This document shows, piece by piece, positions 14,780 through 15,973 of a DNA stretch of 64,000 nt (the stretch's first letter is position 1; each line of letters starts with the position of its first letter). A program made the translations under genes and the position numbers. A model generated the notes under the pieces. That model did no database searches. It saw nothing but the letters and a program-made list of their open reading frames with translations, and was not told the DNA's origin. This DNA comes from Escherichia phage 241, in sequence record OR924452. One strand, written 5' to 3'.

Positions 14780-14894
14780 AATTCATATTGCTGTGGGTAG
14801 TACCAAAGCGGAGATTTGGAATCTCTCACCCTATAGCGACCTTTAAACCGTTTGATCAGTCCGATCCAAAGGACTACCCACAGCAATATGAATT
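14780..14894. repeat. Perfect 22-bp inverted repeat enclosing a 71-nt structured loop
   Basis: AATTCATATTGCTGTGGGTAGT at 14780-14801 pairs with ACTACCCACAGCAATATGAATT at 14873-14894; loop has nested hairpins (CCAAA...TTTGG, CCTTT...AAAGG). Confidence 0.85.
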
Positions 14895-15101
14895 TGTTGT
14901 GTCCAATCAAGGACTGTCAACCTTTTATCCCGTTTGTGCATGATCAGTTCATGCAGGCCTCTTTGTGCGCCTCACAGCAACGCGCTTCTGTAGGTCATTG
15001 ACTTGCACCGTAGTCTCACCACAGGCGTTTATTTTTCCAGGGCTTTCCACTTACAAGTCTTAACCAGATCGGGATACGGGCTTGTAAGATCGGATTGGAC
15101 A

Positions 15102-15179
15102 CAACTTTGATGGCTCTAGGACTAAAGATCCCGCGTCACCCATAGACTTGGTTTATAAAATCTAGAGCCATCAAAGTTG
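15102..15179. repeat. Perfect 18-bp inverted repeat (42-nt loop)
   Basis: CAACTTTGATGGCTCTAG at 15102-15119 pairs with CTAGAGCCATCAAAGTTG at 15162-15179. Confidence 0.85.
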
Positions 15180-15560
15180 CAACCAATGTCGCAACTCGCA
15201 CTTCAGCGTCTTCGTCTCGCTTCAGCACTTGTCCTCTACGTTCGGACCAAACGAGGCTGGCCGACAGAAACATAACACCACTCATCACTAGAGCGAGGAT
15301 GTGGTTGATAGCCACGATGTTACGTCTCTGTCGTAGAGTGATCACACTTGTCAGGATGATCACTGTTTTGCGAACTTGAAAATACTGCGCCTGTCTCGGG
15401 TTTCCCCTTAGTTCGGCCTCTCATTGTTCGTCTGGTCAGGGAGCTACCCTTGATGACCAGCTTATTTTGAGATCTTCGCCAGCACCCACTAGTGTCTAGA
15501 ATATGTAGGTGTCGAGGTCTGCAAGGCATTGCCCTATTTCATACAACGCTCTCTCAAGTG

Positions 15561-15694
15561 CGCAAATCGAAGTTCTCTGGGCTTAACAGGTTCGACCCAA
15601 CATGTTGTATATCGCCTAACTTGCTCATGGGACGGACACATCTGTGTACAGACCTTGAGGGTTAAAAGATATACCCAGAGAACTTCGATTTGCG
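15561..15694. repeat. Perfect 21-bp inverted repeat (92-nt loop)
   Basis: CGCAAATCGAAGTTCTCTGGG at 15561-15581 pairs with CCCAGAGAACTTCGATTTGCG at 15674-15694. Confidence 0.85.
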
Positions 15695-15840
15695 TTGTGG
15701 GGGCAAACCCCCACACGGCCACTTCTTTGACAGGGATTGCCAGCCCTGGGGATTCCACTGTTTAAGGCTTTATCCCATAACGCCTGAGGCGCGTTTTAAC
15801 TTATTGAGCTTGCATAACTGCAAACTGATGCGCTGTGAGA

Positions 15841-15973
15841 CACATCTTTGAGGGCACTCAGTGTACAACAGGCTCCGATATTTCATAGGGCATTACTGCC
15901 TCGGATTTAAGTTGCCTTTCTCCTGAAACTCCATGCAGTCTCGCGTCTGACGCGGAATGCCCTCAAAGATGTG
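15841..15973. repeat. Perfect 16-bp inverted repeat (101-nt loop)
   Basis: CACATCTTTGAGGGCA at 15841-15856 pairs with TGCCCTCAAAGATGTG at 15958-15973. Confidence 0.8.

What the first reader, a model, noticed from the sequence alone, without database searches (positions are those of the whole stretch)
14780..15973. Four perfect 16-22-bp inverted repeats within 1.2 kb, plus a fifth at 13589-13660
Perfect helices of 22, 18, 21 and 16 bp (plus 14 bp) are far longer than expected by chance. Each has a distinct sequence, so this is not a repeat family or CRISPR array. Stems of this length would be RNase III substrates if transcribed, suggesting processing sites or precursors of small RNAs; at DNA level they could be cruciform or protein-binding sites.
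Basis: seen in the sequence. Interest (0 to 1): 0.65.

Follow-up and report, generated by a model that had tools for sequence, protein, structure and literature searches.

The report
Conserved hairpin RNAs in phage tRNA island
The long inverted repeats are real and mark at least six small structured RNAs, kept by compensatory mutations across a whole phage family, in an unannotated 2.5-kb RNA-gene island next to the phage's tRNA genes; what they do is untested.

Summary
The window is a Kuttervirus (Ackermannviridae) phage. All six perfect inverted repeats of 13 bp or more in its 64 kb lie at 13589-16450, where chance predicts about 0.01 repeats of 16 bp or more.

They sit in and beside a 2.5-kb stretch (14668-17215) that has no conserved ORF and lies upstream of tRNA-Met on the minus strand.

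Across Kuttervirus, Agtrevirus, Taipeivirus and Limestonevirus the stems persist while their sequences change. Of 100 core stem pairs, 28 show two or more Watson-Crick types. Wobble intermediates are G.U on the minus strand at 20 positions against 4 on the plus strand. So these are RNA structures, read in the same direction as the tRNAs and downstream of two conserved sigma-70-like promoters.

The enclosed sequence ("cargo") behaves as a swappable module. Some cargos are tRNA-like.

My best reading is that these are stem-closed small RNAs cut from a polycistronic tRNA/ncRNA precursor, with the long terminal helices acting as RNase III-type processing and stability stalks. Cleavage and function are untested.

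No Rfam family or paper describes them.

The same island also holds a tmRNA-like tag-coding RNA shared with unrelated phages and prophages, and a near-invariant tRNA-like RNA ending in CCA.

The parts
13589..13660 (-). Hairpin RNA I6: 14-bp closing stem around a 44-nt cargo, ending 6 nt upstream of tRNA-Tyr.
   Evidence: Perfect IR. The stem is rewritten in Taipeivirus (UCUACCGCCGCGUG to UCUGGAACCCGGUU) with 8 pairs changed on both sides, while the cargo stays nearly invariant. The same cargo sits inside a different 13-bp stem, with two U.G pairs, in a 73.7-kb contig that I take to be N4-like.
14780..14894 (-). Hairpin RNA I2: 22-bp perfect closing stem and a 71-nt cargo folding as two hairpins (three-way junction).
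   Evidence: -57.1 kcal/mol on the minus strand against -46.7 on the plus strand. Present in Kuttervirus and Taipeivirus with 5 double-change pairs. Lost where an HNH endonuclease gene is inserted in CBA6 and Marshall. The cargo weakly resembles a tRNA D-arm and a Trp-type anticodon loop, UUCCAAA.
15080..15200 (-). Hairpin RNA I1: 18-bp perfect core stem (15102-15119/15162-15179), extended by outer helices to about 32 bp, with a 42-nt apical cargo carrying the conserved motif UAUGGGUGAC.
   Evidence: 10 pairs changed on both sides and 97.4% of cells paired; for percent paired and covariation score 0 of 500 shuffles reached the observed value, and slid controls pair at 28-45%. A G-C to G.U to A-U series is seen across relatives.
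15561..15694 (-). Hairpin RNA I3: 21-bp perfect closing stem and a 92-nt cargo.
   Evidence: 8 pairs changed on both sides and 98.6% paired; 0 of 500 shuffles reached the observed value on four of the five measures.
15841..15973 (-). Hairpin RNA I4: 16-bp perfect stem (24 nt at 88%) and a 101-nt cargo. Its 5' arm starts inside the CCA end of the upstream tRNA-like RNA.
   Evidence: The stem is kept while the cargo is replaced by a 57-nt tRNA-like segment (anticodon-like arm plus T arm GCGGGUUCGAGUCCCGU) in SPTD1-type phages, about 70 records, or almost deleted in fGh-Ecl02, RPN242 and A221.
16372..16464 (-).
   Evidence: G.U pairs in the minus sense are common in relatives and 2 pairs are changed on both sides.
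15975..16097 (-). TLS-C: a roughly 123-nt tRNA-like RNA with acceptor stem GCCGUU/AACGGC, T arm GGGUUCGACUCCC, and an encoded U-CCA 3' end.
   Evidence: 95-100% identical across genera, including a phage whose neighbouring protein is only 65% identical. The T loop matches the Rfam tmRNA model locally.
16100..16166 (-). TLS-B: a small tRNA-like element (GAUGGGAG ... GAAGGUUCGAGUCCUUC CUCCAAUC).
   Evidence: Weak Rfam tRNA-Sec match at 17.4 bits. Present in only some relatives.
16240..16366 (-). tmRNA-like coding RNA ('mini-tm') with the tag frame GCU AAU GAU UCC GAA GUU CUG AUG GCG GCG UAA UAG, reading ANDSEVLMAA followed by two stops.
   Evidence: Rfam tmRNA_permuted and beta_tmRNA align the tag region at 21.5-33 bits, below the gathering score. 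More than 120 viral contigs share the element, carrying 10-residue tags.
16515..16607 (-). TLS-A: a tRNA-like element (GGCGAGG ... GUGUGGUUCGAUUCCACAC CCUCGCC A).
   Evidence: Read from the sequence. The T arm matches Rfam beta_tmRNA locally.
16470..16497 (-). P2: sigma-70-like promoter (TTRTCA, 16 nt, TATAGT) directly upstream of I5.
   Evidence: Consensus scan. Both hexamers are conserved in all genera, including Limestonevirus, while the flanks vary.
16966..16994 (-). P1: sigma-70-like promoter (TTTTCA, 17 nt, TATAGT) at the upstream end of the island.
   Evidence: It resembles the family motif TTCAAT-N14-TATAAT reported in PMC7283392.
14592..14667 (-). tRNA-Met, the first canonical tRNA downstream of the island.
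   Evidence: ARAGORN and Rfam.
13499..13582 (-). tRNA-Tyr, immediately downstream of I6.
12825..12847 (-). Intrinsic-terminator-like hairpin followed by a U run, after tRNA-Ile; the likely end of the transcription unit.

Best explanation
The inverted repeats are the closing helices of at least six separate small structured RNAs, each about 70-135 nt. They are encoded on the minus strand in and next to a 2.5-kb non-coding RNA island of an Ackermannviridae phage. The island is read in the same direction as the adjacent tRNA genes, probably from two conserved host-type promoters, as a polycistronic precursor. That precursor also carries tRNA-like RNAs, a tmRNA-like coding RNA and the canonical tRNAs. 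Each long helix pairs the 5' and 3' flanks of a cargo segment.

I propose that these helices work like the stalks flanking 16S and 23S rRNA, or the RNase III sites of T7 early RNA. They are double-stranded handles where the precursor is cut, most likely by host RNase III for the stems of 18-22 bp or more. The cut would free neighbouring RNAs, for example exposing the CCA end of TLS-C at the base of I4. It would also leave each cargo as a nuclease-resistant stem-closed RNA.

Shown here: the repeats exist; they are conserved as structure through compensatory change; the constraint is on minus-strand RNA; the region is non-coding; cargo is exchangeable while stems persist. Inferred: transcription, cleavage by RNase III, and any function of the cargos.
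For: 1. Non-random clustering. All six perfect IRs of 13 bp or more in 64 kb lie here; 4 of >=16 bp were observed against 0.01 expected.
2. Structure is conserved by covariation across four genera. I1 has 10 pairs changed on both sides, I3 has 8, I6 has 8, I2 has 5 and I5 has 2. 97-99% of cells are paired against 20-45% in slid controls. Of 100 core stem pairs, 28 show two or more Watson-Crick types.
3. Strand. Wobble states are G.U in the minus sense at 20 positions against 4 in the plus sense, binomial p = 0.0015. Minus-strand folds are more stable for I2, I1, I4 and I5, and about equal on the two strands for I3 and I6. The tRNAs are on the minus strand. Two minus-strand sigma-70-like promoters are conserved in all genera, and a terminator-like site follows tRNA-Ile.
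4. Non-coding. ORFs overlapping the hairpins carry stops and frameshifts in other genera.
5. Layout fits processing spacers. I4 begins inside the U-CCA end of TLS-C, and its 3' arm adjusts in Taipeivirus to keep that pairing. I6 ends 6 nt before tRNA-Tyr. I5 fills the gap between P2 and the tmRNA-like RNA. In a contig I take to be N4-like, an I6-type hairpin occupies that same position.
6. Payload-independent stems. The I4 stem is kept with three different interiors. In lambdoid and other phages one conserved 19-bp stem next to the tmRNA-like RNA encloses 15 unrelated cargo clusters in 47 contigs, and it occurs twice, flanking that RNA, in an E. coli prophage.
7. Stem lengths of 18-22 bp (about 32 bp with outer helices for I1) are in the range RNase III needs. 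This last point rests on established knowledge, not on a test here.
Against: No transcript, 5'/3'-end or RNase III data were available, and literature searches found none for this phage family. I6 (14 bp) and the perfect cores of I5 (13 bp) and I4 (16 bp) are short for RNase III. The near-total absence of G.U pairs in this window's own stems (0 of 104 core pairs) is unusual for RNA-only selection; it could partly reflect template-switch 'correction' of quasi-palindromes. The alignments hold 4-18 distinct, phylogenetically related sequences, so cell counts overstate the number of independent events. Highly conserved cargo (I6) and the highly conserved spacer 14895-15079 show that the stems are not the only functional part. 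The 'processing stalk' role may therefore be secondary to an unknown function of the RNAs themselves.
Confidence: 0.5

Rival explanations
1. The hairpins are tRNA-derived or Y-RNA-like RNAs. In this reading the long stem is a protein-binding handle or an extended acceptor stem, not a cleavage site, and the RNAs act as decoys or cofactors for host tRNA-processing, RNA-repair, quality-control or tRNA-targeting defence proteins.
For: The alternative I4 cargo is an anticodon-like arm plus a canonical T arm abutting the 3' arm of the stem, with no D stem. A cassette in N4-like phage FSL SP-058 likewise has a T arm next to a roughly 18-bp stem. The I2 cargo resembles a tRNA-Trp D arm and has a UUCCAAA loop, and its 5' arm resembles the acceptor side of a tRNA remnant at about 17028. 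The island is full of tRNA-like elements. From general knowledge, a terminal stem joined to a tRNA-like module is the architecture of bacterial YrlA Y RNAs, and Salmonella encodes Rsr.
Against: No Rfam hit to tRNA, Y RNA or related models at these hairpins, even at E <= 10. I1, I3, I6 and the window's own I4 cargo have no T loop. No Ro-binding motif was identified. No anticodon-loop mimic of a known nuclease target was found.
Confidence: 0.2
2. The repeats are self-perpetuating quasi-palindromes. Template switching during replication repeatedly copies one arm from the other, so the arms stay complementary without any selection for function.
For: The stems in this window are perfectly Watson-Crick with no wobble pairs. 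Template-switch correction of imperfect palindromes is a known mutational mechanism in E. coli and T4 (general knowledge). Such events would produce apparent compensatory changes in a single step.
Against: Intermediate states are biased 20 to 4 towards G.U on one strand, where a strand-blind DNA mechanism predicts about 1 to 1. The hairpins stay at fixed positions across genera whose flanks have diverged 20-30%. The I6 cargo is nearly invariant across phage families while its stem is completely different. Outer helices with conserved bulges accompany I1.
Confidence: 0.08
3. The repeats act at the DNA level, as cruciforms or protein-binding palindromes of a replication origin, packaging site or recombination site.
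For: Long perfect IRs cluster in a non-coding region close to the cumulative GC-skew minimum at about 17-18 kb. HNH homing endonuclease genes insert in this region in relatives. Several public assemblies are linearised inside it.
Against: The GC-skew minimum coincides with a switch of gene orientation, which explains it. Relatives carry arm mismatches that are G.U only on the minus strand, which at the DNA level means an A.C mismatch on the other strand. Spacers of 42-101 nt between arms disfavour cruciform extrusion. Each palindrome has a different sequence, so there is no common protein site.
Confidence: 0.05
4. They are transcription terminators or attenuators, or miniature inverted-repeat mobile elements (MITEs).
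For: Hairpins in an intergenic region. I2 and the I4 cargo are present in some relatives and absent in others.
Against: No U tract follows any of them, and the terminator scan does not call them. Each is single-copy in the window and none matches any of 5,426 E. coli genomes. No target-site duplications were seen. The presence/absence pattern is explained by an HNH gene insertion and by internal deletions.
Confidence: 0.04

Closest known systems
RNase III processing stalks of bacterial rRNA operons and the RNase III sites (R0.3-R1.3 etc.) of phage T7 early RNA
   Same: Sequences flanking a functional RNA pair into a helix of roughly 20 bp within a polycistronic transcript. The helices are payload-independent, and each has its own sequence.
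   Different: Here the payloads are 40-100-nt RNAs of unknown function rather than rRNAs or mRNAs. The stems are perfect rather than interrupted by the internal loops typical of T7 sites. Cleavage has not been shown. One member (I6) has only 14 bp.
Phage T4 tRNA gene cluster with its co-transcribed stable RNAs 'species 1 and 2' (rnaC, rnaD)
   Same: Small stable RNAs of unknown function encoded alongside phage tRNA genes and matured from a common precursor by host RNases (general knowledge).
   Different: No sequence similarity. The Ackermannviridae island is much larger (about 2.5 kb, 10 or more modules) and uses long closing stems. It also includes a tmRNA-like coding RNA.
Bacterial Y RNAs (YrlA/YrlB) bound by Rsr (Ro)
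   Same: A terminal stem formed by the 5' and 3' ends is joined to a tRNA-like module with a T arm. This matches the SPTD1-type I4 cargo and a cassette in phage FSL SP-058.
   Different: No Rfam match, no recognisable Ro-binding bulged helix, and most cargos are not tRNA-like.
GOLLD and ROOL large non-coding RNAs of phages and prophages
   Same: Large, ornate, unannotated RNA regions of phages, often adjacent to tRNA genes (general knowledge).
   Different: No Rfam match. The island looks like an array of independent, individually gained and lost modules with internal promoters, not one folded RNA.
tmRNA (SsrA), including two-piece permuted forms (relevant to the neighbouring element, not the hairpins)
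   Same: A conserved 10-codon tag frame, AN(D/E)xxxL(A/M)(A/V)A plus stop, with the AUAA(A/C)U-GCN resume context. tRNA-like domains with CCA lie nearby.
   Different: There is no alanine-type G3.U70 acceptor stem in the same RNA, scores fall below the Rfam gathering threshold, and the order of coding part and tRNA-like part differs from both known gene arrangements.

Membership tests
RNase III processing hairpins (rRNA stalks, T7 R sites) | Continuous or coaxial dsRNA helix of about two turns (roughly 20 bp or more) formed by flanking sequences. | tested here: met
   I2 has 22 bp, I3 has 21 bp, I1 has 18 bp plus outer helices to about 32 bp, and I5 has about 20 bp with wobbles. I4 has 16-19 bp. 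I6 has only 14 bp and does not meet it.
RNase III processing hairpins (rRNA stalks, T7 R sites) | Lies within a transcribed precursor, between or around functional RNAs. | tested here: inconclusive
   Same strand as the tRNAs, conserved upstream promoters, downstream terminator, and hairpins abutting the ends of tRNA-like genes. No expression data.
RNase III processing hairpins (rRNA stalks, T7 R sites) | Staggered cleavage by RNase III in vivo or in vitro. | not testable with these tools
   Needs end mapping in wild-type and rnc hosts, or an enzyme assay.
CRISPR array or other repeat family | Several copies of one direct repeat separated by unique spacers. | tested here: not met
   Direct-repeat search finds only short two- or three-copy matches of 65-93% identity. 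Each hairpin stem is unique in the window.
Intrinsic terminators | G+C-rich stem with a short loop, followed by a U run. | tested here: not met
   The scan calls none of the six hairpins; their loops are 39-101 nt and no U tract follows.
MITE / insertion element | Terminal inverted repeats, multiple dispersed copies, target-site duplication. | tested here: not met
   Single copy in the window. No hit in 5,426 E. coli genomes. Outside Ackermannviridae only I6's cargo was found, in one contig that I take to be N4-like.
tRNA | Cloverleaf recognised by ARAGORN or Rfam RF00005. | tested here: not met
   Only tRNA-Ile, Tyr and Met are called. No tRNA hit at any hairpin, even at E <= 10.
Bacterial Y RNA (YrlA-like) | Match to a Y RNA covariance model or Ro-binding helix, plus a tRNA-like domain. 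| tested here: not met
   No Y-RNA family in cmscan at E <= 10. A tRNA-like domain is seen only in the alternative I4 cargo of relatives.
Protein-coding gene | ORF conserved in relatives. | tested here: not met
   The three ORFs overlapping I1 and I3 are broken by stops or frameshifts in other genera. The I6 'ORF' runs into tRNA-Tyr, and its residues change wherever the stem covaries.
tmRNA (for the neighbouring element 16240-16366) | Tag reading frame with resume-codon context and stop. | tested here: met
   The frame reads ANDSEVLMAA followed by two stops. Eighteen tag variants, all of 10 residues, occur in 111 distinct sequences. The Rfam permuted-tmRNA models align this region.
tmRNA (for the neighbouring element 16240-16366) | tRNA-like domain with a G3.U70 acceptor stem and T arm in the same RNA, and a score above the Rfam gathering threshold or an ARAGORN call. 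| tested here: not met
   Scores are 21.5-33 bits against a gathering score of 47. ARAGORN calls none. The terminal GUGCG/CGCAC pairing has no G.U at position 3. Separate tRNA-like RNAs lie nearby instead.

The most novel reading that the evidence does not exclude
The hairpins are the Ackermannviridae version of an unrecognised modular RNA system that is horizontally shared among unrelated enterobacterial phages and prophages. In this system long-stem 'cassettes' with exchangeable cargo are arrayed with a tmRNA-like tag-coding RNA and CCA-ended tRNA-like domains. Together they would manipulate host translation or ribosome rescue, or counter tRNA- or RNA-targeting defences.
Probability: 0.3. 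Interest if true: 0.85.

Novelty: new variant of a known kind. Interest (0 to 1): 0.62.

Why it matters
Ackermannviridae phages such as Vi01, CBA120 and Det7 are widely used for Salmonella and E. coli biocontrol. Yet about 2.5 kb of their genomes is left blank or given spurious 'hypothetical protein' calls. This work shows that the blank is a dense, conserved array of structured RNA genes.

If the closing helices are processing stalks, the island is a compact model for how a phage uses host RNases to mature many non-coding RNAs from one precursor. The exchangeable cargos, the near-invariant CCA-ended tRNA-like RNA and the tag-coding RNA point to phage manipulation of translation or of RNA-based immunity by RNAs that current annotation tools (ARAGORN, Rfam, PGAP) do not see.

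All of this is directly testable with RNA-seq in wild-type and rnc hosts, and with deletion mutants.

Tried and rejected
- Rfam at gathering and at E <= 10 found no family for any hairpin, only chance microRNA-like hits driven by the long stems.
- ARAGORN found no tRNA or tmRNA in the island or in related loci.
- Coding hypothesis: the ORFs overlapping the hairpins are not conserved. The conserved AUGGGUGAC in the I1 loop is followed by a stop after three codons in Taipeivirus.
- Host origin or mobile element: no E. coli genome match except the tmRNA-like element.
- Antisense-target idea: no significant complementarity of any cargo to the rest of the window; all hits have E > 0.2. The I1 loop motif has no enriched partner.
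- Direct-repeat or CRISPR idea rejected. Terminator idea rejected.
- A single giant RNA of the GOLLD or ROOL type has no model hit, and modules are gained and lost individually.
- Literature searches for the Kuttervirus/Ackermannviridae non-coding region, transcriptomes or phage mini-tmRNA found nothing relevant. One search was badly posed and uninformative.
- The search for related loci with the neighbouring ORF gave only 11 loci, so the alignments stay small.
- I could not decide whether the tmRNA-like RNA pairs with a nearby tRNA-like RNA to form a two-piece tmRNA.
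Full report
**What the window is.** BLAST against phage genomes places the window in Kuttervirus (Ackermannviridae). The closest record is Salmonella phage PS5, at 96.6% identity over 13000-17300. ARAGORN and Rfam find three tRNA genes, all on the minus strand: Ile 13069-13144, Tyr 13499-13582 and Met 14592-14667. Between tRNA-Met and a conserved 189-residue ORF (17216-17785, minus strand) lie about 2.5 kb (14668-17215). GenBank records of relatives leave this stretch blank or fill it with short, mutually inconsistent 'hypothetical proteins'.

**The observation.** All five inverted repeats exist at the stated coordinates with the stated lengths. A sixth lies at 16386-16450. 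A scan of the whole window finds ten perfect repeats of 12 bp or more with loops up to 120 nt, and the six of 13 bp or more all lie in 13589-16450. Simulated sequences predict 0.01 repeats of 16 bp or more, against four observed. Each hairpin folds 4.6 to 8.7 standard deviations better than its shuffles. I2, I1, I4 and I5 fold better as minus-strand RNA; I3 and I6 fold about equally on both strands.

**Conservation and covariation.** The 2.5-kb region is found in 376 phage records. Most are Ackermannviridae (Kuttervirus, Agtrevirus, Taipeivirus, partly Limestonevirus), at 77-96% identity. I fetched 26 loci from relatives and aligned each hairpin.
- The stems persist while their sequences change. 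I1 reads CAACTTTGATGGCTCTAG here...GGCTCTGG in SPTD1, CAACTTTGAGGACACTG in Taipeivirus, CAACTCTGATGGCTCTC in Agtrevirus and CAACTTTGATAGCTCTGG in a metagenomic contig. All form perfect helices of 17-18 bp.
- I1 has 10 pairs changed on both sides, with 97.4% of cells paired against 28-45% when partners are slid. No shuffle of 500 reached the observed pairing or covariation score.
- I3 has 8 such pairs and 98.6% pairing.
- The I6 stem is completely rewritten in Taipeivirus, with 8 pairs changed on both sides, while its 44-nt interior is nearly invariant.
- I2 has 5 and I5 has 2 such pairs. I4 varies little.
- Over the 100 core stem pairs, 28 show two or more Watson-Crick types.

**RNA or DNA, and which strand.** Single-step intermediates discriminate between the two.
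- A G-C to A-U change passes through G.U on one strand and A.C on the other. In the core stems, which are strand-symmetric by construction, G.U occurs in the minus sense at 20 positions and in the plus sense at 4 (binomial p = 0.0015; 60 against 5 cells). A clear series exists for I1: G-C, then G.U in RPN242 and A221, then A-U in contig L028.
- The minus strand is also the tRNA strand.
- It carries two sigma-70-like promoters whose hexamers are conserved in every genus while their flanks vary. P2 (TTRTCA-N16-TATAGT, 16497-16470) lies just upstream of I5, and P1 lies at 16994-16966.
- A terminator-like hairpin follows tRNA-Ile at 12847-12825.
- ORFs overlapping the hairpins are broken in other genera.

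I conclude, by inference, that the hairpins are RNA structures in a minus-strand transcript. No expression data were available.

**Anatomy of the island.** Reading the minus strand, the order is:
- P1, then a small conserved hairpin at 16719-16682.
- TLS-A, a tRNA-like element (16607-16515).
- P2, then I5.
- A tmRNA-like coding RNA (16366-16240).
- A hairpin with the conserved loop GGUGUGAUUAAUAAG.
- TLS-B (16166-16100).
- TLS-C (16097-15975), then I4.
- A 146-nt spacer, then I3.
- A 360-nt spacer, then I1.
- A 185-nt spacer conserved at 90% identity in the aligned lineages, then I2.
- A 112-nt spacer, then tRNA-Met.
- Further downstream come two small ORFs, I6 and tRNA-Tyr.

TLS-C has an acceptor stem, a T arm and an encoded U-CCA end. 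It is 95-100% identical across genera, more conserved than anything around it. The I4 stem starts inside that CCA. In Taipeivirus, where two bases are deleted, the 3' arm of I4 changes so that UCCA stays paired.

**Cargo is modular.**
- The I4 stem is retained with three different interiors. This window and its close kin have 101 nt. About 70 other Kuttervirus genomes have a 57-nt tRNA-like piece, with an anticodon-like arm and the T arm GCGGGUUCGAGUCCCGU directly abutting the stem. Three other relatives (fGh-Ecl02, RPN242, A221) have almost nothing.
- The apical part of I1 is replaced between genera except for the motif UAUGGGUGAC.
- I2 is ancestral, being present in Kuttervirus and Taipeivirus. 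It was destroyed by an HNH endonuclease gene insertion in CBA6 and Marshall, leaving only its 3' arm in CBA6.
- I6 shows the opposite pattern. Its cargo recurs in a 73.7-kb contig that I take to be N4-like, inside a quite different 13-bp stem with two U.G pairs, right upstream of that phage's tmRNA-like RNA.
- In lambdoid and other phages, one conserved stem of about 19 bp next to the tmRNA-like RNA encloses at least 15 unrelated cargo clusters of 40-176 nt in 47 contigs. In an E. coli 55989 prophage that stem occurs twice, on both sides of the tmRNA-like RNA, between gene Q and the holin gene.
- Other phage tRNA islands also hold hairpins with 23-24-nt arms.

**Mechanism.** I commit to the following reading. 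The helices are processing and stabilising stalks in a polycistronic stable-RNA precursor, analogous to rRNA stalks and T7 RNase III sites, and each stalk also closes a small RNA of its own. Several observations support it:
- The stems are payload-independent.
- Their lengths fit RNase III.
- They sit tightly against the ends of neighbouring RNA genes.
- The CCA end of TLS-C is sequestered in I4.
- Repeated stems flank the tmRNA-like RNA in a prophage.

Several observations count against it, or remain open:
- There are no cleavage data.
- I6 is short for RNase III.
- The stems in this window contain no wobble pairs at all, so template-switch correction of quasi-palindromes may contribute.
- The conserved cargos and spacers imply functions beyond processing.

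Rival readings are tRNA-derived or Y-RNA-like decoys, purely mutational quasi-palindromes, DNA-level sites, terminators and MITEs. Each is weighed in its own section of this report. The strand-biased wobble pattern argues against the DNA-level and purely mutational readings. The absence of U tracts and of extra copies argues against terminators and MITEs.

**Comparison with known systems.** No Rfam family matches any hairpin. No paper in the searchable library mentions the region. The hairpins work most like RNase III stalks. Membership of that class is met on helix length, inconclusive on transcription and untestable here on cleavage. They are not CRISPR repeats, terminators, MITEs, tRNAs or Y RNAs by the tests run.

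**Verdict.** The proposed function is unproven. The finding opens onto a larger unannotated RNA island whose tmRNA-like and tRNA-like members may be the more surprising part.

Noticed in passing
window 16240-16366 (minus strand); also L016:2501-2638, L017:2501-2639, L018, L125:6976-7078, L150:3001-3126: A roughly 130-nt RNA element carries a tmRNA-like tag frame (ANDSEVLMAA plus two stops) with the AUAA(A/C)U-GCN resume context. It is shared at 71-84% identity with unrelated siphoviruses, N4-like phages and lambdoid prophages (124 of 5,426 E. coli genomes, between Q and the holin gene). More than 120 IMG/VR contigs match a 19-base core. Eighteen tag variants occur, all 10 residues long (ANDDVVLMAA, ANEEMYLAVA, ANDNTFLAVA and others). 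A hairpin NNAGG-UCUUCCGAUU-CCUNN covaries. ARAGORN, Rfam at gathering threshold and PGAP annotation all miss the element, and no literature was found.
   Followed up: partly
window 15975-16097 (minus strand): TLS-C is a 123-nt tRNA-like RNA with a 6-7-bp acceptor stem, a T arm and an encoded U-CCA end, but no anticodon loop. It is 95-100% identical across Ackermannviridae genera and is the most conserved element of the island. Its CCA is paired into the base of hairpin I4.
   Followed up: partly
L150:2540-3330 (E. coli 55989 prophage), and 47 viral contigs: A conserved long stem (CACAACAGGUAAGAGCAUU / AGUGCUCUUAUCGUUGUGG) encloses hypervariable cargo: 15 unrelated clusters of 40-176 nt. In the prophage it occurs twice, flanking the tmRNA-like RNA. 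A tRNA-like domain follows that the Rfam tmRNA model matches end-to-end (20.2 bits, E = 1e-4).
   Followed up: partly
L125:6910-6985 (73.7-kb contig, N4-like by my reading) compared with window 13589-13660: The 44-nt I6 cargo (GAUUAGCUGAGGAAGGAUGGCCGAUGUCCUC...GCGUGGCCCAG) is conserved across phage families inside unrelated stems. It contains a Shine-Dalgarno-like GAGGAAGG followed by AUG, and two GGCC tracts that could form a pseudoknot.
   Followed up: partly
window 14895-15079: The 'spacer' between I1 and I2 is among the best-conserved stretches of the island, at 90% identity in all eight comparison lineages. Its 15044-15092 part matches an unrelated 144-kb Klebsiella phage, KP13-26, at 93.9%. 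It probably holds a further RNA element.
   Followed up: no
window 16966-17030: A tRNA-like remnant (GGGCAGU GUAGCUCAAAGGGGAGAG...) overlaps promoter P1. Its acceptor-side sequence resembles the 5' arm of hairpin I2 (12 of 13 bases). This hints that some hairpins derive from tRNA genes.
   Followed up: no
window 15417-15435 and 16188-16206: A hairpin loop motif, CGAACAAUGAG on the minus strand, occurs twice in the island, each time within a short stem.
   Followed up: no
L004:1570-1983, L011:3825-4385 and other relatives: Free-standing HNH homing endonuclease genes are inserted at different points of the island in several relatives (Marshall, 0507-KN2-1, PMBT18, SP1, STP07). One insertion removed hairpin I2.
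   Followed up: partly
relatives: moki, barely, bering, Se_AO1, and IMG/VR contigs L020, L023, L029: Several public Kuttervirus assemblies are linearised inside this island; record ends fall within or next to the hairpins. This may be an assembly break at long palindromes, or a shared start convention, rather than a biological end.
   Followed up: no
L017 (FSL SP-058, NC_021772.1): The deposited tRNA coordinates of this record disagree with ARAGORN by about 1.1 kb and overlap a CDS, so the record's tRNA annotation appears shifted.
   Followed up: no
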